A stretch of 61,503 nucleotides of DNA, the filler included, from Choristocarpus tenellus KU-1152 (Eukaryota > Protista > Phaeophyceae): assembly GCA_964200185.2 (NCBI GenBank). It is 11 parts of 11 records of this genome, joined end to end, with 100 filler letters (N's around TTAATTAATTAA, not from the genome) between each part and the next. Parts side by side here need not be neighbours in the genome. Positions count along the whole stretch, not along the records: positions 34,572 to 43,124 come from CAXNAD020004594.1; 10 more parts are not named here. One strand, 5' to 3'. Made by a program: the position numbers and the translations under genes. The notes under the pieces are model-generated. The model saw only the letters and a program-made list of their open reading frames with translations. It was not told the origin of the DNA and did no database searches. Below, one piece after another: positions 4,701-58,266 of this stretch (position 1 is its first letter; every line of letters starts with the position of its first letter).

Positions 4701-4956
4701 TGGGAGAGACGATAGACTAGATGGGGAGGCTATGTGGGTGATGGTGCTTGCCGCGTGGTGGTGTGAGTACTGTGAGACCGTAGATGTCTGGAAAACGGAG
4801 TGGCACCACTCCAAATTGTACTGAAAGTTCATCTGGAATGTTGTACTTCTATAATTCTACTCCGAACCAACTTGGAACACACTATTCTCACCAACTATTA
4901 TGTCAGATTTGGTTGATTCAGAGCCTTTCGTTTTCAGTTATTGTTCAGAATTTCTA

Positions 4957-11952: not shown

Positions 11953-12230
11953 ACGTAGTGGACATCACTGTTGTAGGCCGTTAACAACGATTCAAAATCG
12001 AGGCAAAACTTCACTCCAAAATCATTCAATTCACACTCTGACGGAATCGGGAAGTTGAACATAATTTCCCTCACCACGTGCTCCAATAGGTTCTCGGCCA
12101 CGGCCAAGTCCGCCACCATTTTGAGAGAAGCCGCTGTGGGATTGGCCTTGAGCTTTCGCAGGGCCCGCTTTGCCCGTCCCAACCCCTTCTTCTTTCCATT
12201 TGGCCGGCGAAAAAAGCCAAAGAGAGCCAT
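11953..12230 (-). CDS. Probable first exon of a hypothetical protein (MALFGFFRRPNGKKKGLGRAKRALRKLKANP...); possible later exons near 11325-11404 and 10140-10250
   Basis: GC-richer ATG-initiated ORF with protein-like composition that turns into AT-rich intron-like sequence at about 11950. Donor position is approximate and no family was recognised. Confidence 0.45.
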
Positions 12231-22953: not shown

Positions 22954-25279
22954 TCATCTCGGGGAACCGCTTGCTTCCCACTGACCACCCAACGCATTAA
23001 CTAAATGTGGTTCTTGGTGTTGTTCTTGAGCCCGGGCCATGCTCGCCAATGCCTGTGCGGCAGCATCGAGGGTTTCATCCTTTTTACAGAAGCAGAACCG
23101 GACGAGGTTCTCCCCAATGCCTGAGTCCCTTGATTCTGCAGAAAAAAAGGCACTTGTTGGGATGGCTACCAGGCCATGTTCGATTGCCATCCACCGGCAG
23201 AAGGCCCAATCCCTTCTCATCACGGGCATGGCAGGCGTTCCCTCCGACAGGTATGAATCAGGTACCTGGCAGTTTCACCCGTTGTTTCGAGGGGCGTTAA
23301 TTAAGTATAGCAGTGTAGCGAGTGGGGGCGGGTGGCGGGCTTTTTCAAATGTTAGTAAGGCGTGAGTCAGGCACCTCGCAAGCGGAGGTAGTATAGAGTG
23401 GTAATGCGGGTCGTGGATTCTTTGTGGTTAGGGTTAGGGTAAGGGACAAATCTGATACTAGGAAACTTAGGGTTCAATATCCTTTTCAGGTGTGGCACGT
23501 GGGCATAGATAGCATCAACACTCAAAGACTAACAAAAACGTTTCCTTCTCCACGGTTCGTTGTGAAGTACTCTGGAGTGCCATGTACTTAAGGGGAAAGT
23601 ACCCAACAGTGGTTTTGAGTGAGTATATCAGAGAAGGGTCCAGCACTTGTGAGGGGATGAGACAGGCGTATCCGTAGTTGGGAGGTTCACATCAGGTACC
23701 CGGCACCTATTAAATGCGACTTTCAAGGGCATTGGAGTTAGGACAAACAAATGCAACATGTTTTCCCCAGAGCTGTCTTGTGACGAAGATGAGGGTATAA
23801 AAAAATCATGCGGCAGGGCCTTCAACAAAATGAAATTATAGATCAATCCCTACTGTCACACCCAATTTTCAAGAAATGTATTTAGGCACCACTGAACGAC
23901 CAATGTATTCACTATCCAACGCATAATCTTCTCCTTGAAAAAACCCTAACCCTAACCCTAACCCTAACCCTAACCTCTAACCAGGATCTACTTCCCATGC
24001 CCCAAAGTGGGGGATGTTTGCATGTATGTTCTTGAATTCAAAATCCTCTTTGAACATCTCATGCCGGCAATGGGTGAAGTAAGTCCAGGTGTCAGTACCA
24101 AATACAATGGAGGATGGGCATAAGGAGGAATGACACCGCCTCTATTTCGGAAAAAAAAAATCCACTGTGAAATCAGATCGAGTCAATAGAAATACCTCTT
24201 CATCAAACGGACCCAATAGGACATATCTACTTTGTACAATTACTTGACATCTAGTCACCATCCCCCCTCCCCGACTTGTTTCTGCATGACTCGCAAGGTC
24301 ATTCAGTGTAAGAAACATCAATCATTTCATCCCTCAGCCAACAACCCCCCCCCCAACAACACATACACACACGCAAAACAAGGTCTCTCTCACCCTTGGT
24401 ATACATGACCTCAATAATTCAATAATTCAATTGCACCAAAATACTTTCACATAGCAAATGCATTCCTGCATGGGCCCAATTGCTGCCTTGGTCAGGTCCT
24501 CACATGAGCTGTGCTCATCACATTCAGCATTCCCTGGGGTTGCACAACTTCCACCTATTTTTGTTTTGTTTTGAAACAATAGGACACCAGAATGCAGAGG
24601 GCCCACACTGCCTTCCAAGGCGAAATCAGGTACTGCCGCCGACTAGGTCTGGGGGGAGGGGGTCGGCATATACAAACAAGAACAGGCAACAACAAAAATT
24701 CTCCTGTACTCTCTTTAATAAAAAACCGATAAAAATATCATACAATTAAAAAAAAGAAAAATCCAACTGCAACTATTATACCTCCAAAAATATAAACAAA
24801 AAAAAGCTCGACAGATATATACACACTAACAACAAGATAAAAAATGTACCATATTTTTTTTAAATTTTATTTTTATTCTACGGCACATACGTACGTACAA
24901 TCGCAATCGAGAGTTAACATCACAATAACAATTTATAATAATACTAATAAATATATATACTCCAAACATATATTTAAACATTTTTTATTTTTTTACTTGC
25001 CTTCACAGCGCTAATGTCGCCGATGAGAAAAAACCCCCCCTCCCCGTTAAGGGTGGGTATCCCCGCCGCCTCCAGCGATGCTTCAAGCTGCGATCTCTTG
25101 CCTGCATACTCCTGCCTCAACCAGTCGTAGTAGCTGGAGCGGCCCTTGTACGGCTGCTCTGCCTGAACCAATGCCGTACACATGGCCTCCTGCATGGGAG
25201 TCGCTGCGCAGAACTGCATGTACGGGAGGGTGGTCTGTATCTCTTGAATCACCCGCTGAGGCCCCAGCACCCACCCCAC
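22954..25279 (-). CDS. KYAT: PLP-dependent class I/II aminotransferase, kynurenine/glutamine transaminase K family; last two exons 25279-25001 and 23265-22954
   Basis: Spliced: (K)VGWVLGP...QFCAATPMQEA...GEGGFFLIGDISAVK|VPDSYLSEGTPAMPVMRRDWAFCRWMAIEHGLVAIPTSAFFS...LVRFCFCKKDETLDAA. The DxxFCRW, AIPxSAF and RFCFxK motifs are typical of KAT/CCBL. Intron is GC-AG. Confidence 0.9.
23942..23982 (-). repeat. Interstitial telomeric repeat (CCCTAA)5-6 in the aminotransferase intron
   Basis: aaccctaaccctaaccctaaccctaaccctaacctctaacc. Confidence 0.92.
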
Positions 25280-25353
25280 CTTTAACCAGAGTTTTAACGT
25301 TAAGCAAAGGGGGGAAGGGGGGTGGGGGAAGGAGGCAATTTTGTGACCGTGGT

Positions 25354-25545
25354 GAGCCAAAGTATCTTAGGGTTAGGGTAGGGCCGCGTCCATTTGGGGA
25401 CTAAAATCTAAAGTTGTGGATTTTGATGAAATTTTGACTATTGTGTTTGTTTGGAAGTGTCAATATCCTTGTTCCAGAGACGCCTCTTCATAACATATAC
25501 ACTTTATCTACTCCGAAATATTTTTGAGTAGGAAAATGTCACAAA
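25354..25545 (+). mobile_element. MITE family A copy, truncated, with TTAGGG repeats in its left TIR
   Basis: GAGCCAAAGTATCTTAGGGTTAGGGTAGGGCCGCGTCCATTTGG, then homology to 54112-54368. Confidence 0.85.
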
Positions 25546-25815: not shown

Positions 25816-28800
25816 CGCAATCTTACGGGGTTCCCATTCCCCCTTGTACGCAGGGTTGTCAATGAGAGGTGCAACCCACTTCCCCTTGTAGTCTGGGTTA
25901 GCCTTGGTTGGGCGCTGCCACACCCCACATCCAGGTGCCTCATCACACTTGGGGTTGGCCACCTGTAACGACATTTATTTATTTTGATGATCATGTCAAC
26001 AACCAACAGGCCACACTGTCTCAACAGATAACCTACATGTGGTATACTGACGTATGTACATACGTCAATGAACCCCATGCATGCATGGAATATCAAGGCA
26101 CCATTCCCCCCAACCCCCCACTCTCCTGCATAGTGCCACAGAGCGCTCCGCAGTGCTACGAACCACAACACAGTAACCTTTCTTGCATGTGGATGATTAG
26201 TAGATAACATCAACTTGTGACTAAGGTAAACTCGACAGGTGGTACTTGCTTGGACAAAAATACTAGTGCACTGCACACAGTCAACATGTTTCAGAACAGT
26301 AATCTTCCTACTGTCCACCGCACCCTAGAGATCTACCTGACAGTACATCCCCCCCCTCCCCCCTCACCCTCCCCAAGCCCCCACAAAGAAAGAACTTGGA
26401 GGCTCCTTGATGCATGTATTAATGTATATATAAATTTATTGCCGTTATCATGACATTCTTTTGTATACAATTATACTCCTCAGCTCCAAAAAATAAAAGT
26501 ACTTCAAAGAAAAAAAATTCATAATGCCTTTCTTTATTTTAAAACGTGGAAACATCAAGATTGAGGGGGATACCTAGCATTACAGTTGAACATATTTGAG
26601 AGTGGGTGCATATCACTGGCTCATTGCTGCAAAAAGTTAATCAATTGGCAAAAATGAAAAAATGGTTATTTTTGTGAACCAGATATCACGTTAAAAGTTG
26701 TAAATAAAACATGTGCAATCCAGACCAAACTCCTAAGGTATACATGAAACGCACACATGTGGAGCACAAACAAAAAGGTATATGCCCTAAGACGATGCAC
26801 ACACATATAAAATAAATATAAATATTGAATGAGGCACGGAGCTGAACAAGGCAAAACTCCTTATAACTCTACCCAGAAAATTCTGCTCAACTTCAACTTG
26901 GGGAAGCAACCTGCCGTGGGACATGCATGCGCTACTAACCCTATCCCTAATCACCTGTAGCCGTGGTTAATTAACACTCTGTCCGAGAAAGACTTGAGGT
27001 GACCATTGAGCAATTTGGGTTGGACAAAGATGGGAGACAGTGTGTAGCAGTCCCAGACTTGAACTCAGTCTTTTTGTGCTACCAGTTCAGAATTGGTACC
27101 AGTCAGTAAACACACTCCCTACAAGAAACCATTGGGTGACCTATGCCTTCACCTCTTGGAATATCAAGAGGTGATCCCCCTAGTTTCAGCCTTGGAGCAT
27201 TGGGCATTTGCCACTAGGTGTTTGACTTACTCCTTTTACCTGTCTCAATGTCCTTGTCCTCATCTTTTGCAACAGCCCTGATGATACTCTTCAACAACAG
27301 CACCAACATCCCCTCCCCTCATGAATCCTACTTTATACCTTCACACAACAACATAAGAATACACACCTTCCAATTTCCACACACACACACACCCTCAACA
27401 CAAACAATTCTCAATACAATACCAAACACCAAAACTAAAAAACTAAAAATACTACAAATAGTTGAATAAAATACTACGACTACAATTAAAAATGTATCTG
27501 TCTTGATACTGTATTCAGCACCTGTACCAGCGATATGCAAGGAGAGTTTTTCTTCAAATTGATGCTTAACAGAGTAAAAACAACACAAATAATATAGTAA
27601 CCCGGTTAGTCTTCATCGTTTGTACCAACATCTGGCCTATATACAACGAGAACATGGACAGGGTAGAAAACACACCTAAAATACATAGATAGTAGCCCTC
27701 ACACAAAACACAGGCTTTCAACAACTTGAAAGGGCGTTACCAATCCCTAACCCTAACCCTTTCATGAGTACACAAAAAAAACAAATATTACAGACAATAC
27801 ACACCCACACACAGGCAGGACTAAAGGTACCAAACATATATACACCTACAACAGTCTACAAACAGACCCATCATAATATAACAAACATGTATTACCCCAA
27901 AAATATATACCAAAGCTTAGAAACACATACCTACACACTCTAAAAAACACAAAAAGCACACATGTACTGTCTTAAGCCCCTCTTACCAGCACAGGTTCCC
28001 ACTCTCCATCTTCCTCATCATCCCAGTCTTCAGGCTTCACACCCTCAGGGTCCGGTATCCTCAATGGCTCTTCCACCAACCACCCCTCAGGCATGATGGC
28101 ATCCTCATCCAAGATCCTGGCAGGAGCATCCTCATCCCAGTCCTCAGGCTTGGACGCTTCCGGGTCAGCAATTTTTGCCTGTGGTTCAATTTGGCCAGTT
28201 TTTGGTCGTTTCGATTGGTTCTGTTGTTCAAGTCTGAAACACCATTTCAAAAATAAAAATAAAAATTTCACTTCCTTCGGGAGCAAAAACAAAAGAAATT
28301 CTCAGAAAAAATATTTCAGGTTTCTATCTCCAAATCAATGCATCAAAAATGCCTCCACCCAGTTCGGAACAAGTGTGGACTGTGCCTGGGGGTCTCTGTA
28401 CATGCCTGTGCAGGAGGAGGAGGAGATGATATGGCTAGACATACTCAAAGTACATGTGCAAGTGAGGAGCCGTTTTCAAAATCATCAACAGGGAGTTCTA
28501 AACCAACAAAGGCGTTACAGGTCAAGACCCTACCAAAAAAACCACAAAAAACAAAATCATCGTCTGCGATAACCCTTCTTAAGAATGACAAATATTTCAC
28601 TCTCTTGGGAAGGCGTTTTCCTTCTACATTCACACAATACCCACGACCATACACAACCGCCTGCTCAACAAATCAGACCGCACCCATACCTCCGCTCAAT
28701 TATTGCTCAGAACTACGACTATTCTTGGTCATACCAACCATTCTTGTTCCCCAAAGTAACACCGCAGTCCCCCCCAAAAAAAACAATATTCCTAGTACAA

Positions 28801-34200: not shown

Positions 34201-35380
34201 AATGCTGTGATGAAGATTTTGTTTATTTCCTTAGACAAGTGTGTATGGAATATTCTCAGTGGAAGTGAAGAGCAAGGTGCTTTGAGGTGTGCAGTGTGTA
34301 CTTTGAACTAAATACTAGCCTACTGTATATATATATTTATCACTGTCTAAGGAGACTGAAGATTTTTTATCATGCCAATCTATGTATTTTTCGTGAGGAA
34401 TACAAACACTATGGATAGGGTTAACATGTTTTTTATTTATTGCTTTGACCCAAAGTATCTGGGAGGGGGGGNNNNNNNNNNNNNNNNNNNNNNNNNNNNN
34501 NNNNNNNNNNNNNNNTTAATTAATTAANNNNNNNNNNNNNNNNNNNNNNNNNNNNNNNNNNNNNNNNNNNNGGTCTAGGTGGGGAAGGGGAGGGGGCCAG
34601 GGGGTGATTTTAAAATGGTACAGAATGATACTTACTTGTAAGGCAAATGGGTCCTCTGGAGTCAGTGTGACATGGAGGAAGGTGATAGAATAGTGTACCT
34701 CATTGGTTGCATCTAGTACCACAACTGAGCATTTTTCTGAAGTCTCTATCCAACGATTGGTCGGTGTATGGCAGGCACTAGGGAGTGTCAGTTTCTGTTG
34801 ATAAAATAGGCAGTCTTGAGGGAACAACCACGATTCAGAAACTACAGACCATGTGTTGTGGTGTGTTTGAAGGGTATAGTGTACAGTAGAAGTATCCTAA
34901 GTACCTCACTTTGAACTTGGATGTGTAGGACTCTATGGGATGTAATCAGAGAGTCGTTATGGTCTCATGCTATAGTATGTTTTGTGATAAGCATGTTTTG
35001 TAATAGGGTAGGTCAGGGTTGCTTGTGATGTGATGGGGCAACACACAAGTGAATCGTTCCTCTCCTAGAAACATATCAAGAGCATGTTGAGATTGGTTTA
35101 AAGTACTACTTAGTACATCATAACCACGTTTGACAATATACTTGGGGGCACTACATCAGAACTGTGTTCATCAAAGTACTAAAACCGAAGAGTCAAGGGG
35201 TATGGCAGGCTGATAATACCTCTTGTATTGTATGTTCTTTAAATAGTAGTGTACACTGTCAATACAAACACATATGTTTGACCCTGTTCTTTACATCCAC
35301 ATACAATGCACTCTCATGCTCACTACATTGTGCTGTCCAAATGCTTGTTTGTCTTCATTTTTTGGTGTCTTGCCACTAAG

Positions 35381-38300
35381 TTATGCCTTCCTCTACGCCA
35401 AGACAGTCACGCTGGGAGCAACACACTGGCCACAGACCAACAACGTCATGCTCCGCAACAGACGCATTGGCTGCAGGTTAAGACGCTCAAAGGGTTCACT
35501 GCATTTGCCTCAAACCCCAAAGAGGGAAAAGCAGAAAGGAAGAACAAAGAGTCTTCAATATATATGGAGTATGTAGGCCAATATTTTCCATGGGAGTTAT
35601 CGCAACCTTTTTTTTGCTAGTAGCATAGGGTTTTTTTAAAGGGAAAAAAATCGTTTTGTATGCATACTATTAGAAGAAAAAAGTGGAGATCCTTGTTAAC
35701 CATGATCGCATGGTCCCCAATATTGTCGCATGTTGACTGGTTTGACCCTTGTAACTGATGAGCTTCAGCCTGCCTGCCTGTGTTGCCTGACTACGTTGGA
35801 CCGCTAATATTGGAATGCAGGGATACCAATACCTTTAATGGTTATTGTAACATCATGTTGGAAGTTATGTCACTCGGGAACATGTTCTTGTGAGGAAACG
35901 TTTTATCCATGTATTGTTCACTGCTGTATCCTCCTGGCTTGTGATTGACTCATGACCTTGATCTTCTCGTGGATACGGCATCGCTCAGCCCATTTTGGTT
36001 TCCGCATACATGCAAAGGCATTTCTCGTGGCAAAGCCCACTGGTGTATGCCCCTGTCTGTCGCACAGGCAGCAAGAAAAGTGCTGGGTGTGCCTTCCTAG
36101 TATGTTAAATATGACTAAACGGTACCGACATTACAACATAGTGCAAAAAGTATGAGATTGTACCAAGAGTTCCTTCCCCTAGAGGACACAATTGCTCTAA
36201 TGATTAAATGTGTGCAACTATTATTTGTTGTGCTAGCCCTTGCATACCTTTTCTTGCTTTTAGTCAATGGCTGCTACGTTTGTTCTCCCTTCTGTGAGTG
36301 TGAACATGTACTGGGAAGGGCATTGGTGACTGGAAAGTAGGTGACTCCCCAACAAGACACGCCCCTCACAATTATATGAGTAGTTGTATGTTATCCGCTC
36401 AATGGCCGCTGTGTTCTTCGCCTCTTCAATTGCTAAATTTTCCCTTGTCTCTTGTGTGTGTGCTCTCTCTGAGGGATGTTGACGTTGATGATTCACACTT
36501 ACCCTCCTTTGGCTACATCTTTCCACTCTTGTAAGTTGGCTTTTTTCATGGTAAGAAAAAAAGAGGCAATGAAAATTGTTTGATTTTTTGTCCACCTGTT
36601 AGATTTCGTAACTGGCTGGAAGGAGCACAAGCTACCTTTATTGTGTATTAATAGATACACAGTACCTACACACTACTGTGTTCCATGTACTCACTTCACT
36701 TCACTTCACTTCACTGCAGTAAACACGTACTTGCTACTGGGGTGTTATGGAAAATTTCTGAGTGCAGAGACTCTTGGAGCCATCATTCTCACTTGCTCTA
36801 AGAATGACCAGATCAACTTAATGAAATTATCTATCCATTTTCCCTTCAGACTTGTTCCCTACCCCCTTTAGAATCATCCCTTCCTTACACTGGAAACCCG
36901 ATGTTGCCCTGGATACTGCTTGTGTGTGTGCTGTATGTATATATCTACGTTATTCCTGTTCTACCTGTGAGCCAGTATGAGCGGTCTGGCCCAGTTTGTT
37001 GCTGCTAGAGGACTGGGTACGCTTCAAGAGTGGTGTGAAGAGGGCTACCAAAGGGTGATGCAAACAGACAAGAAAATCTCGGGTGAGAATTGTATTATGT
37101 AGTGACTGACAAATGTGACCTTTGATGCCAATATTGCCAATGTTGAGGGCAAGAGAGGAAGGTAACCAGGTAAGTGAATCCTACTGACTTATTAGTAGGA
37201 AGTTATCGCCCCTTTCAACGGTTGAATCGATTCTTTGGTTGTACCATGGTGAAGCACTGTTTGCAATGTTGTGCTTATATTTGGTGCTTTGTACATTGTG
37301 TGAAGCAACCAAAAAGGTTCTTTGTTGAGGTCACGGTGCTGGCTGATTGGGCGTTACAATGGTTTTGATATTGCCGGTATGTTTGCTAATCGTGTGTTAA
37401 TATTTGTAAGAACATGCACAACTATTGGTACCAAGGTGTAACGTTCTCATCTCTGGTGCCACCATTGTCTATTGCTGCCCCCTGGTCTCCTGTTCAATCT
37501 TTTACAATGGCCTCGTGTCTTCCACTGAGTGTTGAATGAACCAGACGGCAAACAAATACGCCTTTCTTGTCTGGTTTGTCCCACACTCAGAGGAAAACCA
37601 TGAAGAAATTGTATCAGTCTCGATGATGAGAAACCAGGAAGGAGTGTGTGATGAGTGGTAAGAAGTGTTCGTGATCAACCATTCCAGTACAGGAGAGGGT
37701 TTGGTCTGATGATCTTTACAACCGTGGCACCTACGTTACCCTTATCTTATACTGTACTTTATTTATTTATTTATTTATGTAGTGTTTTTATTCGGTAAAA
37801 TATTTTTATTTCTGTGATTTCCCTAACCCTCTAAACTACAATTAGTGATTTAAAAAAAAAATGGTTTGCAGGGGGTGTTTGTGGGGGGCAAGGTAGAGCG
37901 GAAGCAATGAGTGTTTGACGTATGAACAGCAAGCACTTTTGAGTGATACCGTTTATGAGGGAAAACGTTTTAACCCTGTTGGTCCGTTTAGGTTTGAAAT
38001 ATTGTGGCAAAACACGATGTTTTGAAACCCTTTTTTTTTCATTTTGATCTGTACCGGATTCGGTGAAGGGTACAAGAATTGTCGATTTTGAAGTCCATTT
38101 TTCATTTTACTCCGTTCCGGATTAAATGATATCAAGATCACAACATTGAATAGCTACCCCAAACAGATGCCTGCCACTCCTTGTGAATTGGCATGACTGT
38201 TAGTTGTGCTTTGATGTCATACCGCTCATATCCTGGATGGTACTGTAGAGGTTTTGTAAGTTACTGTGTTTGTAGTACTGTGGGATTGTTATTGTAATCC

Positions 38301-41300
38301 CGATTGTGTTCATCGTAACATACCTGATACAACCAAACATCAACTGACCAACTGTAGACCACTGGTGTGGCTGGCCCTTGCGTCGAAATGACGACTTGAA
38401 AAAATTGTTTTTTTTTCTTGCTAGTGCAAATGAGAAAGAAAAAAATAATCCAGGTTGGAATGCCCACTTTTACTTGGTGTGCCGCTTGGTTTTGGAAGGA
38501 TTTTGTGGTTTGTTGAGATGAGTACATTCAATTTTTTTTGTTTTTTTGCAACCTGTTGTTGTCTTGCTTGAAAGGTATCCTTGAATGTCTCCTCGAGCTT
38601 CTATATCAAACAAGTACAGTTACGTTTTCTCCCACTTTAAGATTTGACCGTGCTTTTATCCTCCTGTGCCTTTGCTCTTCCTGCACATTACCTATTGTTA
38701 TGCACTGTTTCCCTGCAGCACGCCATGTACGATACTTACAGTGTGTGTGTGTGTACTGGAGAAGGTGGTACATATTTGAATGTCAAGTCAGGAATGAAGA
38801 AAACATATCAGTCTTTTGTTTAATCTTTATTTTTCAATGTTCAACCTCTATGTGGTAGTAGTGCCATGTAGTACACATATGTGTATGTATATATATATAT
38901 ATATCAATGGCAGTATTACATATTGTAGTACTTCGCAAGTGACTGTGTCACCTTTTTATTTTCTGTTGACTTTCTTCTATGGTGTCCTTCTGTGGTTGAC
39001 AGAACAACTGGGCATACCAACATCGATCAAGACAACCAGCATCAAACCTAGTGGGACTGTGTCTCTCCTTGCAGGAGCAACACCAGGTGTGCCATAGTCC
39101 ACTTGGCCTCAATTTGACATTGTAGTACAGTAATGATGCATGGCGTTATCTGTCCCTATCCCTATTAAGCTATCAGGGTCATTGTGGGAGAGAGGTGGAG
39201 ATGTGAGGACCTGCTGTTTTCCTGGGGGTGACATGAGCGCACCTGACCTATTGAAACTACTTGTTTGAGACAGGTTTTTTCTGACACTTGCTCTCGGGTG
39301 GCTGTGTTTTAATGTGGATATTTTTATGGAGTAGTTGAGTGCTCACTTTTGACTGCAGATAGAAAACAGTGTGCTTTTCACCTTCAAGCAGACTTCTTTG
39401 ACTTTTTGTTTTTTTGTTTTTTTGAGGGACTTTTATTGTCGTGCCAAATGCAAATGAAATATTCAGCAATGTCTATCACAAATGGCCTATCTTCTCTAGC
39501 CTGTGGACCAAGAATGGTGCTGCAAGTCCTGGGTGTCTCAGGGCTGACATCAGTCTGATATTGGTGAAGTAGTGGATCAACCATATCAACAATTTAGAAC
39601 GGTTTATCTCAGAATCAACTCTTGGCAGACTAAATAATTCTGATTTATTGTCTGGGTCAGATCACATAATCACACAAAGGCACTTTGCAAAGGCAAAAAT
39701 AGTACCTTTGTTGAGGTGTGTATGGCCTCAGTGGAAAGAAAAATACTTGTGACTAAATACAATTCTGCTTGTATTGGTGCCAATTCAAATCTGAGAATTA
39801 AAAAGTAAGTGATTGCTTTCAAGTACTTGGACTATGAGTAGTGGGGTGGGGTACTGTAGGGTGGGTCAAGTATGACCAACAACAACGGCTAACAAACTAC
39901 TAGTATAGGTAGCATGCTCCTTGGATTCGCCTTGAGCTGTTTGTTACAGGTAGTGTTACAGGTGTTAAGATTCAATCACACGCTTTCTTAGGGTTAGGGC
40001 TAGTTTGCACGACCCGCAAGTGCTAATGATTCCAATTTCTGTTAATACTGTTATAGGTGATGCAGGAAGGGTGGAATCAAGACATTTGAATTTGTTCGTT
40101 TTGATCATCATTTACCTCATACCATACCCCAATGCCAGGGTACATCATGTTGTGAGAACATCCACCGACCTGCACTATGCAGTGTTGTTTAGAAATGGGG
40201 AGTGGATATATCTTTTACTATTTACACATGTAATGTCTGGTTGTGCTTGTCTCCCACCATTTCGAAGACTGCCTAGTCAGACCAATCACCTCACCTGCCT
40301 GTATGCATGCAAGGCCTTCAATGACCTACTTTAAACACTTGGTGGAAGTCCAGATGTGCTACTCCACCCTGTCTGAGTGCTTACAAAATCAAATCTTGCC
40401 ACTGTTGTTGGTAACACGGAGATAAGTCTATATGAGGTGATCTTTGTATTTCACCACTCTATTGGCAGGTAACACTGATAGAGGAGAACACAGAGGACAA
40501 CATGATATCTATCACAAACCCCCCTCAGTTTGTAACAAGCCTAAACAAGTCTTACTACCCTTGAGTCTCACATGTTCCCTTTTTTTCTCCAGGAATGCAC
40601 TACCCGGAGTCCAGGTTCTACCTCCGAAGAGTGAGGCTTTCAGCTGACTCCGACCTTATCCCTACTCTACAAGAAGCCGGCTATAGGTAGGGTCTGGCAC
40701 ACAGAATACGATTGAAACCTCCAACAGAACATTCTGAGACTCTGATCTAAGAATATGTGCTGGGAGTGGATTGAGACATAAAGGAGGTGAAGGGTGTTAG
40801 GTTCAACCTATGTCAAGCTGATTTCTCCAGGAAAAGCGAGCCTCACACAATCCAGATCATTAAAGATAACTTTTATCTCTGGGCACTTATTGTGTATCAA
40901 CTTGTGTGTGTGTGAATTGAGTGCAGAACTGGTACACATAGAGAATGTTGATGTTATCTGCCTCTCTATAACCCATTTGGACAATAGTGATGATAAAAAT
41001 GTCCCTCCACATATCAATTCATTTCCTGTGATGTATGACGTTACACAAATTGACCAAAACATCACCGTGAAACCCGAGATCGTTTTCCATTTTTGTGGCG
41101 TTACTGTGATATGTCAATGCAGTGTCATTGCAGAAATATTCCATACTACCAAGGCTCCAAATGTCTCTTTTGTATCGCAATTTCTGTTCAAGACCAATTC
41201 ACAGTAAAATCCCCTTAATAGGCTGTCAACATGGTCCCCACTTCACCTTGCAGTTCTCAATGCTTTGTAAGGTGTTACTCACACATTTTTTCTTGTTGTA

Positions 41301-42731
41301 TTGCGTGGACCATACCATTTTACTATGCTGGGTGTGGTCTTTGCTGATTGTGAGAGCTCATGTTTGACAAATAACGCACACCTGTGGCACTGGGTAATAC
41401 TTCAAAATAGTACTGTAGATTTAAGAGAGAAGTTGTGAGAGATCATCCCTGCTGCGTCTTGGTTGTTATTTATGCGAATTTGTTGCTGGTAGAAACCCTT
41501 CAGGATAATCATGTTCGCTTCAGATTTATGTTTCACTCCTCAAGGTGCATACTGGCTATCATGCAGTAAGATATAATTATGTTCCCTCCCTCCAGAGACA
41601 GAAGACTTGAGGATGGCATCCTTCCCCCCTGCGTGCTTCCCTTAACAAAGTCTCTAGTCAACAATATAATAGTGACAAGGAAAAAACACTGTTGGCAAGT
41701 ACTCCAAGCGCAGGTATTTGGTTGAAACCACTCCAAACAAATCCATGTCTTGCTTCCTTGTCCTGCTTGCTCATGCCTTCTCACCATCCTCATCTGCAAA
41801 CACACAAAAAGTATTGAAGCATCAACTACTGATCCAGAGGGCACTGTTGTTGTGAAGATACCAGTGGATGTGGGTGAGGGTGTCCGCACTGTGGAGGAGG
41901 TGTCAATGTGGGAACAGCTCAGCTTTGCTGCGTTCCTGCAACGATTTTGGGCTGACAATCAGGTGAGCTTTAGTATTTTTCCTTTCCCTTGTTTTTTTTT
42001 TGGTGTGTGTGAGAGTGCGTGCACCTGTTGTCCCTAGTAATTTAGGTGGGGCATAGAAAGTTGTGCAGGCGACTGCTGACTTCTTGTGAATGTCCCTTTC
42101 ACTGTAAGAACAGCCAATTTCCTTATTATTTTTCTTTTCGGGGTTGGGTTTGTTTCCTGCGATGGAGAGGTCTACCGATTCCCTCGCTGTGTTAAATACA
42201 ATGCTTGAAGTTATTTATGTACTTTTGTTTGTCAAAAAAAGTTGCTGCTACGTACAGAGGCCATTATACTTCGAACTGAGAAGGGCTCCAAATGACTACA
42301 GTGCATCAGAGTGAGTGCCCCAGAGTACATGCTATTGTACTGAAGTCATGAGGCAAAGGGAATTGGGTGATAGGATTTGAAAGAGATCACTACTCGCCTT
42401 TTGTTCCCTGTCTTCTCCTTCACACAAAGTGGATACACATATGGTCGCCAGACATTGTTTTTCTCTTTTCCTAGATACTCCGAGTGATGGGCAAACTGTT
42501 TGTGCAGGTTGATTTTCTCTGTGGAGTTGAATCTGATTTGATCAAGTTCATGCGTCAGTCTCGCTGGCCTTTCCTCTGAGCCGTTGCACTTGTATCCCTC
42601 AGGTCAGCTGCACTGTAACATTCGACCCAGACAAGGAAGGTCCTCATCTCACACATGCACTTGATTATTTCCAGTACCAACTCAAGGGGGTCAGCTTCCT
42701 GCCCCGCATTAACTATGGGGCATTTCCACAG
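35381..42731 (+). CDS. nrdJ: Adenosylcobalamin-dependent class II ribonucleotide reductase (monomeric RTPR/NrdJ type), C-terminal half; exons 35381-35476, 36976-37082, 39003-39086, 40593-40686, 41812-41962, 42603-42731
   Basis: Six exons splice in consistent phase (five GT-AG introns) into 220 aa without stops: YAFLYAKTVTLGATHWPQTNNVMLRNRRIGCSMSGLAQF...SIKTTSIKPSGTVSLLAGATPGMHYPESRFYLRRVRL...VSMWEQLSFAAFLQRFWADNQVSCTVTFDP...QYQLKGVSFLPR..GAFPQ. These motifs are characteristic of RTPR-type NrdJ. Confidence 0.93.
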
Positions 42732-43067
42732 GTTTGTGTCACCAAGAACAATAGTGCTACATTTCTGTACCTTACTCCCCTTAGATGATGCTTAGTGGGT
42801 TCAGTGTGCCAGAAGAGAGCTGCGTCCCTTGCGCTATTTGCTTGCACATCTCAGAATTTAATTATGTAGATTGCGTGATGGAATGTACCAAGGCAGCATG
42901 TTGAGATACAGAGAGACATGGATTTCAAAATATCCAAGCACGATCATGATCTGTGAATTGCCAGAAAACTTGCAGCAATGATGGTCATACATGACCAGTA
43001 TCCAAATTTTACTCTTGTATTTTCGTTTTTTGATCTTTGTCACTCTTCTGGGTTGCACTGTTGTATC

Positions 43068-43098
<31 letters not shown>

Positions 43099-43224
43099 GT
43101 TCTGTTGGGCTGTTTTTCGTGGGGNNNNNNNNNNNNNNNNNNNNNNNNNNNNNNNNNNNNNNNNNNNNTTAATTAATTAANNNNNNNNNNNNNNNNNNNN
43201 NNNNNNNNNNNNNNNNNNNNNNNN

Positions 43225-45720: not shown

Positions 45721-47933
45721 CCCTACATTTTTTTTGTTATGCTTCTTCTTTTCTTCTTATCTTCTGTTCTTCTTCTTCTTTCTTCGAGGGACGGACTAAA
45801 TAATACACTTGCTAAATACTATTGTGGTTTCACTTTGATTTAACTTACCCTACCATAACATACTTCCCCCATACCCCACACATTTTTGTCTCACCGGTTA
45901 TTCAATATGACAATGACCCAGGAAAACGTCAAAGAATACAAATATTACTGACAAGATATCTACGAAGATGTGTCTCTCAACACTTTTAGCATGATGACCA
46001 CTTCAACACCACTTCATTCCTTTGACAGAGAGTGTCGCATGTCTTTCCGTCCAATTTGTCTCCTATTTACCATCATTTGAATGGATTATTGCTCTTTACT
46101 CTTTCTCTCCTTCTCAATAAGCGTACGAGTTATGGTGGCAATTTGGGAGACACTCTAATGGTTTTCTGATTCGAGGATGTCACTTCACCACCTACTACGG
46201 GATGGATTGAACCAGAGAGGTACTAATAGTACACACCTGTTATATGTGCCAAATGTGAGGAGAATATCATGTTCCTCGTTGTTACGAAGGGAAGCATATT
46301 GTACTTCTTCAGTGAAGCCATATATGGGATCACCCACACCTTTTTGCCCCTAGTATGGAGTAGCAAAGGACTCACAGGTATGCTCGCTGCTTTTGAGGCC
46401 TCTGCAGTAATATGCTCATCCCGCCTTGCACCTCTTCACACCATGTCGCTACATCCATCATCTCCCACCCCACTCCCTTCAATCTTCACTCTTACAAGCT
46501 GCATCGCAGCAATAGATAAGATACGACATCGGGTAGGTTACCGTACCACCGGAAGATCGTTTTTGATCCCTTTCCCTGTGATGATATGCTCATGAACGAC
46601 CTTTGGCAGGACGTCAAGTGGGAATCGTTGCGGCCATCAATCCAATGGCTCAATTCCTCATCAGCCCGTCTTTGTGCTCCTTAGCTGACCGGTATAAAAT
46701 TCATAAAAAGGTTTGAGGTTGTGGAGGGTTGGCTGGGGTTGCATTGATCATGTACCCATTCCGCCTATCAACGACCAGAATATGGACAGCAATCTGTTTA
46801 AGGAAAACGTATGCAGTTACAATGCGTTGAAGACATGCTGTGATTCCGCCATCTACACTTCCATAATGCTGGTGTGTAGGATACACGGAGTACGATCATG
46901 TCTTCTGTCTAGTTCTTGTCTCACCTCGCATTTCATCCTCAGTGCAAGATGTTAGGACCTGACCACCTGGCTGTGACAGGCAGCAAGCTGAGCCAACAAA
47001 TAGCCTATGACCTTTTCGCTTCGAAAATATCACATGTTACTACCATGTGGATCACCATGCGCATCGGGTCTGTAATCTCTCTCTACTCTTGTCCCTTGTG
47101 CTTGCCTTTTTGATTTCAGATGCTCCGTACGTGTCTCTTGCTTTGGGGTATCATGTGCATACCCGTGATCTTTGTAGGAAGTTTCTCAGCCGTGGCTTTG
47201 ATAGAAACTGCATCAGGGGTGTCTAGCTGTCCTGTCTTCAGCCTCATAAACACGTGCGTTGTCAAAGTGTACGGAGCAAAAGGGTGAGGAAAACTTACAT
47301 TTCACGTGTAAGAGCAACGGGGCACGTATCATCCTGCTTGCAATCGAATTCGTTTTCTCTCACTATGTCGATATGAGGTCATGATCCAGCAATGGGAAAT
47401 CATGTGTGGTCACTGACCTTGGGCTGCGAACTCATTGTGGCAAGAAGAGAGTCTGTGTGAGCGAACCATTGTGGAATCAAAGTCCACCTCCTCCCTATAC
47501 AGAGTTCTTCCTAATATACTTTGCAGCAAACATATACCTTGCTGAGAAGATTGGATTGGGAAACTACGACTCAACTTGAGAAACACTTCGAAAACATAGG
47601 ACGATGCCTTGCATTTTTATAATATGGTAAATCCATTGTTGTATATCCATATCATCGTATTTTTGGGGGAATTGTCTGCCGGGGACATTGTGCATAAATC
47701 ATGTGCTGCTCATAGCTCGCACACACCATACCACTGTGGAGTATTTGGGAGGGACAAACCCCCTGGTTCATCAACAGCAATCTGATTAATATTTAGGGTT
47801 GGGCTGCCTTCCTTTTTTATCAACTCTCGTGATCCGAGGTTTTGCTTATAATTTGGCCTTTGCAATACAGCACAGTATTTTGTGCTACATGCCTTACTGC
47901 TGCCAATTCCATTGGTCGTTATTCCAACCTGAG

Positions 47934-48660
47934 CTGTATGCCTATAACCTTCCTTCTAATGATAGATACCCAGTCCATCGTACATGGGGGGCAATCGGGG
48001 GGGGAGTTTTTGCACTTGCTTCAGGGATCGTTGCTGGCACCAAGGCAGGGTTCACTGGTGTTCTGATTGTCTTTGCGGGACTAACAATTGTTGTGTTTTT
48101 TTGTGTGGGTTTCTTCCCGGAAGACAACATGCACTACCATGAGCAGCCAGACACTGAGGATTATCACAGGTATGAGGTATTTGATCAGGTGCAGAAGGCA
48201 TTTTTGAGTCATCTTTGCCCTCCTTGGACCGAATGGAATATGTTATTTTGTCGTTGTTATTTAGAGTTTTTGACTGTAGGTTGTTACTTGTACAATGAAA
48301 CTTGTGTGTTTTGCTACTGCCTGGGCAACAAACTATACCCCCAAACACGTAACAAGACCAGCTCTTCACAAATGTGCATAATTTTGGAGAGGATATAGTG
48401 AACGGTATATTTCATTTATATTTTTATCACCAAGTGTCAAATTCCTATTTATTACTTCTGCTCCATCAATGATGCATACAATACAATTCCAATGCAACTT
48501 TGATATATGACTATAGGCCCAATCCAATTTTTCCATTTCCCTCTCTACCAGGAATGCTGTGGGAACACGCTTCGGTACTTCATCCTCCACCCCGACATCT
48601 TTGCCTCCCACGCCAGTTGATTTTGTGGCAACAGAGGTGGAGGAGAATGACCCTGCAGTG
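47934..48660 (+). CDS. MFS transporter (MFSD6/MFS_1_like), internal exons about 47934-48169 and 48552 to beyond 48660
   Basis: DRYPVHRTWGAIGGGVFALASGIVAG + hydrophobic helix resembles the YGxxRLWGAxG motif. Donor CACAG|gtatga joins in phase to accag|GAATGCT (RNAVGTRF...). The 5' acceptor is uncertain. Confidence 0.65.
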
Positions 48661-50258: not shown

Positions 50259-52520
50259 TGTTCGATTAGACTCTTCCAACTCTATCGGACAGTTACAGTG
50301 GAATATGTATGGAGTAACGGAACAATCAAGTAGTGGTTGAGTTATCAGAACCTTTTACTAGTGACTAGTTGTATGAGAATGTTTCTGATAAAGAAGGAAA
50401 TATTTCTGATTTTATTGGGGCGTTGCATGTCCCACTTACCTTTAATCAATCACTCTACAGACACCAAGCAATCTCGCCGAGTTTATCACCTTTATCCTCT
50501 TTTATGATTTGGGAGATAGTTTAACACAATATATTGAACCTTAGGTTTCTAACCCATCATTTCATCATGTCTACACGAGGAGATGTGATTCAAGAATTGT
50601 GGGGGAACCTGTTCCTTCCGAGGGCCCATCTGTCCAAGAATTCAGACAGCTTATGGCGACGGTAGCGGAGTTGGCAAGAAACGTTGGCAGTCTCATGGTT
50701 CAGTCTGAAAGAGTCGGCGACGGAAATCATCCCGTCGTCGAGGCCGCTCTGCCCAGCACACGGCCTCCGGCTGGGGGCGTACCAGTCAAAGTGGGTCCTA
50801 TGGAACCCATGTTGAGGGAAAATTTCCCAGAGAGGGGAAACAGTTTGGATGCTGCGAGCGTCAGAAGTGGAGAAAGTCGGATGTCCAGTTCTTCGGAGAG
50901 CTTGGGGTCAGGCGCACATATTGTTCGCCCTATGTCAAAGAGATCAAGAACCCCACCACCGAAACTATTGGACGACTTGGACTACCGGGACTGGCGGAGG
51001 CGTTTCATCGTTCATGGCCGATATACTCACTGCTTGGATGCGTTGACAAGTGAAAGACCAGTCAATCACGAACACTCCTACGAGGAACTTCTCTCGGACG
51101 GCTTCAGTGCGAATGATATCTGGATGGCCGAAGAGGCCTACCATGCACTTACTGTTGCTCTCGTTGCTCCCACCACCAGGGCACTGTGCTATGCGCACCA
51201 AAGCCCGAGCGAGCTTTTCCGAGCAATAGATCATTGGTTCATGCCTAATAAAGTGGGTAATAGCCAACACTTGTTTCGTGAGTTTTTCACTTCAAAGGCA
51301 GTGAAGGGGGCGAATCCAATCCTTACCTTAACTGCCTGGAAGAGCTACAGGGGAGGATGCTATCAATGGACCTGGTGATCTCGGACAAGCTGCTGCTCCT
51401 ACAGTTCCTGAGTGCTCTCGGATCAGATTACGATACCGAAATACGCATGATGGCCTCGCAGAGACACTATGTCAAGCAGACGTAGAGAAAACTGCTAGAG
51501 AGCGATATGCTTCCCTTCATCAGGGGAAGGACTCAAGACATGCTTTGGTCGTTAACGGCTCATCGCAAGGGAAGAACCAGTCTCATCGCAACGGCCAAGG
51601 TCACGGGGCCGAACGTAAATGTAATGGTGGAAGAAAGAAAAATGGTTCTAATTCCAACCCAAAACGTTCTTAGAAGATTCCTTGTGAGAGATGCGGAAAG
51701 CATGGACATGAGAAGCCAGCTTGCCCAAACCGCATTTGCACTAAATGTGGCGGACGTACCCATGATGCAACAACATGCACTTCGGTATTCTTGACTACAG
51801 TGCAGTCTGGGAAAGAAGAGATCAAGACTGAGGCGAATCCTTCCCACATTACTGTGGAAAGTACCACCAGCTGCAGTGACAACGAGTGATACGCACTACT
51901 GGTCGCCACTGAGGACTCTCCGAGCAGCAATGCTCCAGGCAAGTGTGGGGCAAACGAATGTTTGGTGTCAAGTGTTGGGATTGGCCGCGAGAGAGAAGAA
52001 TGGATTTTGGACAGTGCGGCTTCATGTCATACAACAAATATGGTAAAATCCATGAAAGGGTAGTCACTGCTAGCCTAAATTCCTTTCGCATCGCTGTCAT
52101 GGTGATCTAACCATCTTGTTTCCGTCACGTGACAACAAGGAGGTAGAAATACTCCTTAAAAATGTCGCTCATGACCCTGATCTCGGGTTGAACCTTTTCT
52201 CTTGCCAAGCAGCAGCTGATAAGGGTGCAAAAGGCATTTTCACAGCCAGCACATTCTCACTATTAGGTGGAGTACTTACCTTCGCAAGAGATCCGGGTTG
52301 CCACTACACCCTCCATGGTCAACACATATTGCTGCGACTAGATGGAAATGCTGAAGTTGATTTAAAGGCCACTATAGCCCCGTCGCTTGCACCCCACACT
52401 CCCCACACGGAGATCGACATTAACCTCTTCCACCACTCTTATGGCCACGCACACAAGGCATTGCTCAAGTCCACTGCCACTTCAATGGGCATTACAGTTG
52501 GTGGGTGAGCTGGAGCCATG
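50259..52520 (+). mobile_element. Ty1/Copia LTR retrotransposon, 5' part: LTR (about 50259-50540), decayed PBS, Gag, zinc knuckles, protease, GAG-pre-integrase
   Basis: Gag DYRDWRRRF...SPSELFRAIDHWF; CERCGKHGHEKPAC and CTKCGGRTHDATTC; protease WILDSAASCH; LFHHSYGHAH pre-integrase motif directly after the protease (Copia order). Multiple frameshifts and stops. Confidence 0.9.
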
Positions 52521-55946: not shown

Positions 55947-57174
55947 GTTGTAGCAAGTAACATAGCAAGTAACATGGATTGAGTGACGTGTTATTAGAAT
56001 ATGAATTGTAAGGTGATGACCCCCTTGCTTGGAGCTTTGAAGTTCACTCTCCTTCCTTACACCTTTCTTACTTCATGTACAACCTGTTCTGCATAATAAG
56101 GAATTAATCGAGTCATTTACATGCACAAGTCTTGGGAACACCGATTTCTTTAACATGCTAGCTAGCATTACTTATTGAATTGTGCTAAGTTCTCAAGGCT
56201 AGCGTTAAATCGACTTGACGGGGAGTCCCGATGGAGGAGGCCGTCGGTTATAGAAGACATACTTCGAGAAGAGCGGAGTATGGAGACACGACACCTGCAA
56301 CACCAGTTGAAGAAGGTGGAGAGGCGGTCGAGTCTGAGGATGATGAAGACGGAGGGGAGTTTAGCAGAACCGCGCAACAGGGGGTACCAACTGGACGGAG
56401 ATTAAGACAACTGATTTCATTGCCATCAACGTTTAAGGTCTACAGTGGTGATGATGATGATGATGGTGATGGATATGCCATGTTTGAACGAAAATTCCTT
56501 TCGTGAACTACCATGGGCGACTGGAAGGATACGTTGTTATCTGATGATCGCATCAGAGTCAGCAGCGATTCCTTCGACGATTCAAGATGGTCTTAACGAG
56601 AAATCGAAAAGGTAAGTATGGCCATGGCTGCTCTAGTGATGGCTTTGGGCGGGTTCGCGGAACAAGTGGCGAGCAACCAATACAGTCCTTCCGAAGCTTT
56701 TCCAAGCTTTGAGGAACCACTTTAGGAGAAGTGGTATCACTGAAAGGGCTAACTTGCGATTGAAGCTTAATTCGTTACATTTACCTGCTGGAGAGGATCC
56801 ATCCACAGTCATCATGGAACTGGACAGCATTGTGAAGAAAATGCGATCCCTGGATGATGAACCGAGTGATGAAGAGCAATTGAGTGCCATACACAATTGC
56901 TTGACTGACGAATATTTTATTGAGATTCGACAGGTCACAGGATGCGGTCGGGCAGCGAGGATGGATCTACAACAACAAATTTGCGAAACGTATCAACTTC
57001 GTAAACGACAGCTTAATCGACGGATGGGAACTAATGGTGGTGTTGATGGGTGGAGGTCCCTGTTCGAGTAGTGGAACTGCAGATTTTCAGAAGGATCGGC
57101 AGTCAAGACGTGTGGAGTGCTGGCAGTGTGGAGGACCACACTTTCAATCTTCCTGTCCCACCGTTGTTAAATAA
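55947..57174 (+). mobile_element. Second Copia-like element: probable LTR (about 55947-56155) and degenerate Gag with zinc knuckle
   Basis: YAMFERKFLS*...SPSEAFQALRNHF...LKLNSLHLPAGEDPSTVIMELDSIVKKMRSL...CLTDEY (UBN2-type Gag); CWQCGGPHFQSSC; stops and frameshifts. Confidence 0.8.
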
Positions 57175-58266
57175 AATCCAGTACAAAACCCTTCAAAAGA
57201 TCTTATCATACCCTTTCATTTTATATACATATATATATATATATTGTATATCTGTTGTGATGTTCCCGTCAACAAATTCAAGATTGCCACAGAGGGCGAA
57301 GCTACAGGTACCACCTTACTGCAATTTTATACACGTTGCACACCAGTACTACACTTTAGTAACTATGTAGATCAAATTTCGCAAACTGTCATGAACGAAC
57401 CCTATGTTACACACAATTTGGTCTGGAGGTGTTACGGTCACTACATAGCATTCCATACGTTTTCGTTGTCAATGTTGTGGGCGTAACATAGTGGTTCTAT
57501 TTTAACGTAACACACGTTGTGTCAGGGCACAAAATAGTGTGATGTAGTAATTTCGTTATATTATTAAATTATCATAATGAAGAGTATAGTTGGTACTATA
57601 GTGTTGTAAATCGTGACGGTGCAATCGGCTTTAGTTCGATTTACTGGAATAATCGAAAAAATGAACTGAAGACGTTGGTTATTCGGAAATTTAGAAGTCA
57701 CAGAACGACATCTTCGCCACCAAGTTTCACTACCCACGGCTCATTATACATATATATCGCTGTTCATGACTTCAGATCTGCCAGCTAATACTTGTGGAGG
57801 CTTTGCAGTCTTCGACCGTGCATACTTCGAGTGTGTCACCTCTTCGGTGGACAGTTTAATCTGATCAATCGATAATCGATAATTTTCTACCCAAAAATTA
57901 GAACTGTAAAGTCTTTCGGTTCACAGCATTAGTGATTACATGGTTGAGTGGTATCTACTACTACTACTGCATGAGATTTCACCCTCTCAACGGAAGAAAC
58001 GACAGAACATCTGGATTTGCCTTTGGACATCAACGTCATCACCATACAACAATTGACACAAAAACAGAGTACAGCCGTGAATAAGACCCAAAGTATCTTG
58101 GGGGGGGGGGGGGTCTACACCAGGGTGTCAATTTGGGTAAAATCGGGAAAAGTGTATTTACTTTATNNNNNNNNNNNNNNNNNNNNNNNNNNNNNNNNNN
58201 NNNNNNNNNNTTAATTAATTAANNNNNNNNNNNNNNNNNNNNNNNNNNNNNNNNNNNNNNNNNNNN

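What the first reader, a model, noticed from the sequence alone, without database searches (positions are those of the whole stretch)
35381..42731. Intron-containing, intact B12-dependent class II ribonucleotide reductase (monomeric RTPR/NrdJ type) in a eukaryotic nuclear contig
Seen: six small exons across 7.3 kb, only partly visible in the ORF track, splice in phase into 220 aa with no stops. The peptide carries YAKTVTL, RNRRIG, KPSGTVSLLAG, RRVR, WADNQVSxTVTF and LKGVSFLP. Established: these motifs typify adenosylcobalamin-dependent, O2-indifferent class II RNRs. Eukaryotes normally use class Ia, and class II has a patchy distribution (e.g. Euglena, Dictyostelium, oomycetes) usually linked to horizontal transfer and differential loss. 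Inference: the five long spliceosomal introns argue against bacterial contamination and point to an old, domesticated gene. This alga-like host may therefore have an iron-sparing dNTP route that depends on bacterially supplied B12. The catalytic Cys region and the C-terminus lie outside the contig.
Basis: partly seen in the sequence, partly recalled or inferred. Interest (0 to 1): 0.78.

Follow-up and report, generated by a model that had tools for sequence, protein, structure and literature searches.

The report
Brown seaweed B12 ribonucleotide reductase gene
This is part of a real, spliced brown-seaweed gene for a likely vitamin-B12-dependent enzyme that makes DNA building blocks; the gene is ordinary for brown algae and their relatives, but many related copies begin with what looks like a mitochondrial address tag, so the enzyme may work inside mitochondria.

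Summary
Observation confirmed: six GT-AG exons on one 8,553-bp contig give 220 codons without a stop. Contigs of public run X3 skip all five introns exactly and continue into further exons on both sides. NCBI already holds exons 2-6 as an unnamed partial protein of the brown alga Choristocarpus tenellus. [quoted passage not shown] It is not rare here: orthologs occur in other brown algae, xanthophytes, Chrysoparadoxa, Nannochloropsis and oomycetes, the tree places it among them (99/96), and intron positions look shared. The iron-sparing idea and a class Ia partner were not tested. The lead worth keeping comes from relatives, as this gene's start is off the contig: 29 of 43 eukaryote-clade homologs with an N-terminal extension look like mitochondrial presequences, against 1 of 19 prokaryotic or viral ones (my own post hoc rule). 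One paper calls RNR-II cytosolic. The scan noted the same presequence idea on other DNA (e1-7130743). Verdict: new member of a known kind; mitochondrial location about 55%.

The parts
35381..35476 (+). Exon 1 of the visible part (96 nt, phase 2-2; YAKTVTL and RNRRIG); omitted by the NCBI model
   Evidence: X3 contigs join it to an upstream exon and to exon 2
35477..36975 (+). Intron 1, 1499 bp, GT-AG
   Evidence: skipped in X3 at depth 134.8, also covered by an unspliced contig at 12.9
36976..37082 (+). Exon 2 (107 nt)
   Evidence: start of P0003
37083..39002 (+). Intron 2, 1920 bp, GT-AG
39003..39086 (+). Exon 3 (84 nt; KPSGTVSLLAG)
   Evidence: alone hits TIGR02505 at E 2.8e-5
39087..40592 (+). 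Intron 3, 1506 bp, GT-AG
40593..40686 (+). Exon 4 (94 nt; RRVR)
40687..41811 (+). Intron 4, 1125 bp, GT-AG
41812..41962 (+). Exon 5 (151 nt; WADNQ)
41963..42602 (+). Intron 5, 640 bp, GT-AG
42603..42731 (+). Exon 6 (129 nt; TVTF, LKGVSFLP)
   Evidence: the X3 contig runs on 165 nt into a downstream exon that is not in the window
34572..35380 (+). 3' part of the upstream intron; in brown-alga-like relatives the exon before it carries the NPCxE motif
   Evidence: AG acceptor at 35379-35380; X3 loose end at 35374; exon-shaped ORF calls in relatives
42732..43124 (+). 5' part of the downstream intron, up to the contig end
   Evidence: GT donor; X3 loose end at 42731

Best explanation
These six exons are the spliced middle-to-late part of a nuclear brown-algal gene for a monomeric class II ribonucleotide reductase, predicted to use adenosylcobalamin to turn NTPs into dNTPs and likely imported into mitochondria. 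Shown here: exon structure, open frame, splicing in one run's contigs, family assignment, and position among brown algae and their sister groups. From established knowledge of L. leichmannii RTPR and Thermus-virus NrdJm: Co-C homolysis makes a thiyl radical on the NPCxE cysteine, a cysteine pair reduces the substrate, and a C-terminal cysteine pair is recharged by thioredoxin; no iron subunit or oxygen is needed. Inferred from orthologs: the unseen 5' exons hold the catalytic cysteines and a basic, acid-free, disordered N-terminal extension that would act as a mitochondrial presequence. The enzyme would then sit where adenosylcobalamin is made and would supply dNTPs for mitochondrial DNA when B12 is available, beside an expected but untested cytosolic class Ia enzyme. 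Confidence: about 0.95 for identity, about 0.55 for the whole statement.
For: Family: P0003 hits only TIGR02505 in NCBIfam (E 1.8e-32) and only 1L1L below E 0.1 in PDB (E 6.4e-28). The Laminaria ortholog model matches 1L1L at E 5e-49 (target TM 0.78), ahead of dimeric NrdJ (1e-17) and class I (1e-15 or weaker). Cys119/408/419 equivalents and NPCxE are invariant in 50 of 50 aligned homologs; 46 of 50 have a C-terminal Cys pair. Splicing: 5 of 5 joints in X3. Inheritance: clade with brown algae, xanthophytes and Chrysoparadoxa at 99/96; gene-model artefacts in relatives break at the same junctions. Presequence: 29 of 43 versus 1 of 19; in 28 extensions of 55 aa or more, first 25 residues pass in 18 and last 25 in 0; 577 of 7429 core windows pass; 18-34 of 43 versus 1-5 of 19 over 12 rule settings. 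Laminaria and a full Ectocarpus model share a similar basic start. Residues 1-160 of the Laminaria model have pLDDT below 50. No hydrophobic signal peptide in 14 of 14 N-termini checked. Non-photosynthetic Rigifila, Hondaea, Lagenidium and Aphanomyces stellatus pass. Adenosylcobalamin is made in mitochondria (PMC11439496, passage).
Against: This gene's own N-terminus and catalytic cysteines were not seen; two searches for them failed. The presequence rule is mine, set after viewing the sequences, is not a trained predictor, and counts related sequences. Hydrophobic moment did not separate the groups. 14 of 43 extended proteins fail, 14 more of 57 have no extension, and 8 of 18 named models fail, among them Chrysoparadoxa, Phytophthora sojae, Nothophytophthora and Saprolegnia; Nannochloropsis oceanica also fails. 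Some failures are truncated models (Bigelowiella, E. siliculosus, P0124), but the Phytophthora start is shared across species. PMC11439496 states that RNR-II is cytosolic (passage). No text match to ribonucleotide reductase was found in the main texts of the Andalucia and Diplonema mitoproteome papers; I did not check whether those organisms have the gene. Dictyostelium NrdJ protein was undetectable and did not rescue class I inhibition (PMC3605638). Three of four full-length orthologs score below the TIGR02505 cut-off.
Confidence: 0.55

Rival explanations
1. Same enzyme, but cytosolic: a back-up to class Ia that supplies nuclear dNTPs without iron or oxygen when bacterial B12 is present. The N-terminal extension would be a linker without targeting role.
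For: PMC11439496 states RNR-II is cytosolic (passage). PMC3566019 proposes an anoxia role for the Nannochloropsis enzyme beside class I (passage). Phytophthora, Chrysoparadoxa and Nannochloropsis N-termini fail my rule.
Against: The basic, acid-free signal is confined to the very start of long extensions (18 of 28 versus 0 of 28) and recurs in distant lineages, including both brown-algal genera with a complete start. No iron- or oxygen-response data were examined.
Confidence: 0.32
2. The enzyme is targeted to the plastid, or to both organelles, to supply organellar DNA.
For: Ser/Ala/Arg-rich acid-free N-termini also resemble plastid transit peptides (own knowledge); the host is photosynthetic.
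Against: Stramenopile plastid import needs a leading signal peptide (own knowledge); the highest 11-residue hydropathy was 0.25-1.49 in 14 of 14 N-termini checked. The same kind of extension occurs in plastid-lacking Rigifila, Hondaea and oomycetes.
Confidence: 0.07
3. A transcribed but non-functional relic, or bacterial or viral DNA rather than a host gene.
For: About two thirds of the coding region, including the active-site cysteines, is unseen. Close prokaryotic and viral homologs exist at about 70% identity over this span. Brown-algal genomes carry inserted viral DNA (bioRxiv 2024.02.19.579948, passage).
Against: Five spliceosomal introns removed in X3; open frame of 220 codons; short terminal branch (0.15) nearest Discosporangium; flanking exons are transcribed in frame and match the Laminaria ortholog.
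Confidence: 0.04

Closest known systems
Ectocarpus siliculosus CBJ29109.1 / UniRef100_D7FJK6 and other brown-algal models (Laminaria digitata CAM9251274.1, Discosporangium mesarthrocarpum CAM9837565.1)
   Same: Orthologs: 72-76% identity over the 220 aa for Ectocarpus sp. 6 and Laminaria, 79% over 124 columns for Discosporangium; apparently the same intron positions; UniRef already labels the E. siliculosus protein RTPR.
   Different: Uncharacterised database entries, many mis-spliced or cut at the N-terminus. Intron 5 has a GT donor here, whereas read-through in most relatives suggests GC (inferred from peptides).
Lactobacillus leichmannii ribonucleoside-triphosphate reductase (RTPR/NrdJm, PDB 1L1L; TIGR02505)
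   Same: Only significant PDB sequence hit and best fold match of the ortholog model; catalytic cysteines align in orthologs.
   Different: About 30% identity; bacterial and intronless; lacks the roughly 160-residue disordered N-terminal extension of the Laminaria ortholog.
Eukaryotic NrdJm of Dictyostelium, Euglena, Phytophthora and Nannochloropsis (PMC3605638, PMC3019208, PMC3566019)
   Same: Same monomeric subclass; the papers place stramenopile sequences in this clan (passages and section 22).
   Different: The passages I read do not name brown algae or propose mitochondrial import of NrdJ. Dictyostelium and Euglena sequences were not in my trees.
Aquatic virus-contig and uncultured prokaryote NrdJm (for example loci L081-L160, L001-L014)
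   Same: 59-62% identity to the Chrysoparadoxa ortholog; nearest non-eukaryotic group in both trees.
   Different: Intronless, median N-terminal extension 2 aa against 53 aa. Direction of transfer was not tested.

Membership tests
Monomeric class II RNR (NrdJm/RTPR) | Closer to RTPR than to dimeric class II, class I or class III | tested here: met
   P0003: TIGR02505 only, 1L1L only, phrog_367; tree inside NrdJm
Monomeric class II RNR (NrdJm/RTPR) | Reaches the TIGR02505 curated cut-off (340.05 bits) | tested here: inconclusive
   Fragment scores 112; full-length orthologs 333, 314, 320 (below) and 367 (above)
Monomeric class II RNR (NrdJm/RTPR) | Thiyl-radical NPCxE cysteine and redox cysteine pair | tested here: inconclusive
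   Off the contig and not recovered; invariant in 50 of 50 homologs; the window begins about 21 residues after the last one
Monomeric class II RNR (NrdJm/RTPR) | Insertion that mimics the dimer interface | tested here: inconclusive
   Off the contig; 4 of 4 full-length orthologs carry PF21995 and PF17975 above cut-off; ortholog model fits 1L1L far better than dimeric NrdJ
Monomeric class II RNR (NrdJm/RTPR) | C-terminal cysteine pair for re-reduction | tested here: inconclusive
   Off the contig; present in 46 of 50 homologs; X3 shows that the next exon is transcribed
Monomeric class II RNR (NrdJm/RTPR) | AdoCbl dependence, triphosphate substrates, monomer in solution | not testable with these tools
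   Defined for NrdJm in PMC6459318 (passages); needs an assay
Class Ia RNR large subunit (NrdA/RNR1) | Best match to NrdA models; ATP cone | tested here: not met
   No TIGR02506 hit for P0003; E 3e-4 at best, in 1 of 4 orthologs; no ATP-cone family in Pfam
Spliceosomal intron-containing nuclear gene | GT-AG introns removed in transcripts | tested here: met
   5 of 5; one run, kind not on record
Mitochondrial matrix protein with cleavable presequence | Basic, acid-poor, Ser/Ala/Arg-rich N-terminal extension without signal peptide | tested here: inconclusive
   Not visible for this gene; met in 29 of 43 extended homologs, including Laminaria and Ectocarpus
Mitochondrial matrix protein with cleavable presequence | Amphipathic helix, trained-predictor call, import or cleavage | not testable with these tools
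   Hydrophobic moment did not discriminate; no predictor available; Atlas feature search of residues 1-90 gave no usable hit

The most novel reading that the evidence does not exclude
Brown algae and many other protists make dNTPs de novo inside the mitochondrion with an imported, B12-dependent monomeric class II RNR, placed where adenosylcobalamin is produced. That would explain why a seemingly redundant class II enzyme has been kept beside class Ia across several eukaryotic supergroups, and would overturn its description as cytosolic.
Probability: 0.5. Interest if true: 0.72.

Novelty: new member of a known kind. Interest (0 to 1): 0.35.

Why it matters
As a gene it adds little: one more ortholog, with a corrected exon and first splice support. 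If the presequence reading holds, it gives a testable answer to a stated puzzle (the role of eukaryotic class II RNR is called enigmatic in PMC3605638), ties bacterial B12 to mitochondrial DNA upkeep in seaweeds, and would be an organellar de novo dNTP pathway. I found no report of one in 10 library searches, of which addressed location; most subscription papers are not covered.

Tried and rejected
No whole genome is held, so class Ia RNR, METE/METH and B12 uptake genes were not checked. Single exons gave no RNR hit in Pfam (0 of 6) and hits for 3 of 6 in NCBIfam: too short. The run search listed no holder on record as RNA; this says nothing either way. Searches for this gene's upstream exons failed: no Choristocarpus label among the 120 shown of 1492 hits; 0 of 555 stored proteins carried the expected exon-end motif after the representative search (150 shown of 807). 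Locus searches with a single protein found no relative in genomes or viral contigs. The metagenome scan gave 80 of 457 loci at 55-63% identity, none brown-algal by identity, so intron positions in relatives were not seen at DNA level. Atlas search of the extension: no usable hit; whole protein: RTPR clusters. Exon-1 skipping, seen in 4 relatives' models and implied by the NCBI model here, has no support in X3 (no joint or loose end at exon 2's start); I treat it as prediction error, though contigs drop rare forms. Eukaryote monophyly: 99 in FastTree (97 rows) but unresolved in IQ-TREE (28 rows); no donor is claimed and no clade test was run. Supplements of PMC11439496, which may hold targeting predictions for RNR-II, could not be read. 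Helliwell 2011 is not held. Contamination and pseudogene readings were rejected as above.
Full report
Observation. The window is eleven short contigs joined by spacers; the finding lies on contig 34572-43124. The quoted motifs occur on the plus strand in six pieces. Exons 35381-35476, 36976-37082, 39003-39086, 40593-40686, 41812-41962 and 42603-42731 are separated by GT-AG introns of 1499, 1920, 1506, 1125 and 640 bp. Joined, they give 220 codons without a stop; the other frames have 11 and 5 stops, and each intron has 10-30 in-frame stops. A full-length ortholog finds these six exons and nothing else in the window.

Splicing. Three public runs of one study hold the stretch; none is on record as RNA. 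X1 and X2 cover introns and exons alike and show none of the joints. X3 shows all five joints as GT..AG skips at contig depth 135-189, with contigs at depth 13 or less over parts of some introns. I infer that X3 is a transcriptome. Its contigs leave the window at both ends of the gene, and the loose ends read in frame as the residues that precede and follow this span in the Laminaria ortholog. The gene therefore continues on other contigs. Contig depth is no measure of expression level, and the runs may include the assembly's source.

Host and family. A search with exon 5 returned P0003, 100% identical, on a contig of the same length, labelled unnamed partial protein of Choristocarpus tenellus (120 of 397 hits shown). 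That model covers exons 2-6 only. P0003 hits only TIGR02505 (RTPR) in NCBIfam, only 1L1L with a significant E-value in PDB, and phrog_367. An AlphaFold model of the Laminaria ortholog has a confident core and pLDDT below 50 over residues 1-160; its best fold match is 1L1L (E 5e-49), far ahead of dimeric class II and class I. The cysteines that align with 1L1L Cys119, 408 and 419 and the NPCxE motif are invariant in 50 of 50 aligned homologs. None is on this contig. Three of four full-length orthologs fall just below the TIGR02505 cut-off.

Distribution and history. Orthologs are in Discosporangium, Laminaria, several Ectocarpus, Hapterophycus, Scytosiphon, Tribonema, Heterococcus, Phaeothamnion, Chrysoparadoxa, Nannochloropsis, oomycetes, Hondaea, Bigelowiella and Rigifila. 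E. siliculosus CBJ29109.1 is labelled RTPR in UniRef. In FastTree (97 chosen rows) the window pairs with Discosporangium (87) inside brown algae (88), within a brown alga, xanthophyte and Chrysoparadoxa clade (97), within a 61-row clade holding all named eukaryotes (99). IQ-TREE on 28 rows keeps the nine-row clade (99/96) but resolves neither brown-algal nor eukaryote monophyly. The window fills only 33% of columns. Mis-predicted models and ORF calls in relatives break at the junctions seen here on both sides of exon 1, before exon 4, on both sides of exon 5 and after exon 6; intron 2 was not checked. This is indirect evidence of shared introns, in line with intron stability across brown algae (bioRxiv 2024.02.19.579948, passages). 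The nearest non-eukaryotic homologs are from viral contigs and uncultured prokaryotes; no direction of transfer was tested.

Literature, all seen as passages unless stated. PMC3019208 and PMC3605638 (also section 22) describe eukaryotic monomeric class II RNRs, including stramenopiles, as transfers from bacteria; the latter calls the class II role enigmatic and could not detect the protein. PMC3566019 reports class II beside class I in Nannochloropsis. PMC11439496 surveys algal RNR-II, states that it is cytosolic and that adenosylcobalamin is made in mitochondria; its supplement was unreadable and may bear on targeting. PMC6459318 and PMC9669993 define NrdJm features; the latter has no occurrence of 'mitochond'. 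PMC11550330, PMC4580454, PMC4850488, PMC7050145 and PMC12699882 added nothing on brown algae or location. A search for the phrases 'class II ribonucleotide reductase' and 'mitochondrial targeting' found 0 papers. The library lacks most subscription papers.

The presequence lead. I noted N-terminal extensions in orthologs (note) before finding that an earlier scan note, e1-7130743, made the same suggestion on other DNA; that note is not evidence. Test: from the 61-row clade I dropped 4 rows (the window, two models without N-terminus, one redundant partial), leaving 57; 43 have an extension of 20 aa or more (median of all 57: 53 aa). Of 162 non-eukaryotic proteins 158 could be anchored (median 2 aa) and 19 have such an extension. 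With the rule 'at least 3 Arg or 4 basic and at most 1 acidic residue in the first 25', 29 of 43 pass against 1 of 19. In 28 extensions of 55 aa or more, the first 25 residues pass in 18 and the last 25 in none; 577 of 7429 core windows pass. Twelve variants of the rule give 18-34 of 43 against 1-5 of 19. No signal-peptide-like stretch was found in 14 of 14 N-termini, and plastid-lacking lineages share the feature, which favours mitochondria over plastids. Against: the rule was set after viewing the data; sequences are related; unnamed rows and L011 (titled as a bacterial MAG) count as eukaryotic by tree position only; hydrophobic moment did not discriminate; 8 of 18 named models fail, as do 11 of 14 further records, many partial, including Nannochloropsis; the Phytophthora start looks genuinely different. 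This gene's own N-terminus was not recovered.

Mechanism. Most likely a working NrdJm that reduces NTPs with an adenosylcobalamin-generated thiyl radical (established for the family, not shown here), likely imported into mitochondria to supply mtDNA synthesis when B12 is available (inferred from orthologs, about 55%). That this host also has class Ia is an expectation from PMC3019208 and PMC3566019, not a result.

Verdict. Observation confirmed; interpretation partly supported. I score 0.35, carried mainly by the testable mitochondrial hypothesis.

Noticed in passing
window 35381: First base of exon 1 is T in the window and A in the X1 and X2 contigs; X3 has contigs with both letters joined to the upstream exon (depth 54.9 and 78.4), so probably a heterozygous Ser/Arg site at acceptor +1.
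   Followed up: partly
window 41963 (intron 5 donor) and orthologs: Donor is GT here, but 8 of 9 other named brown-algal models and 11 of 13 unnamed ORF calls read on as Ala-Ser or Ala-Arg after WADNQ, which suggests a conserved GC-AG intron that gene predictors miss. DNA not seen.
   Followed up: partly
window 34584-35408 and 35447-37002: X3 has unspliced contigs over the upstream intron and all of intron 1 (depth 10.7 and 12.9), possibly slower splicing around exon 1.
   Followed up: no
P0349/P0348 and P0121 (Tribonema): Tribonema minus has two NrdJm copies; the P0349-type copy has a presequence-like start in T. gayanum, P0121 fails the rule. Possibly compartment-specific paralogs.
   Followed up: partly
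L011 3001-4953: NrdJm on a contig titled Proteobacteria MAG groups inside the eukaryote clade and has a presequence-like start; probably a eukaryotic contig in the bin.
   Followed up: no
window 27975-28301 (-): Calreticulin/calnexin-family exon (PF00262, E 6e-22).
   Followed up: no
window 24977-25366 (-) and 22957-23274 (-): Aminotransferase class I/II exon (PF00155, E 7e-8); the second piece looks like its C-terminal exon by eye but had no Pfam hit.
   Followed up: no
window 47790-48398 (+): Major-facilitator-like transporter fragment (PF12832, E 6e-5).
   Followed up: no
window 56640-57071 (+), 50545-52508 (+), 59324-59755 (+), 4124-5600 (-), 58215-59031 (+): Transposon remnants: copia gag (PF14223) and DDE_3 (PF13358) hits; the other pieces are assigned by eye only.
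   Followed up: no
window 11796-12296 (-): 167-codon open frame with a hydrophobic segment and no significant Pfam or PHROG hit; unexplained.
   Followed up: partly
whole window: Twenty TTAGGG/CCCTAA doublets in the window, telomere-like but not mapped to contig ends.
   Followed up: no
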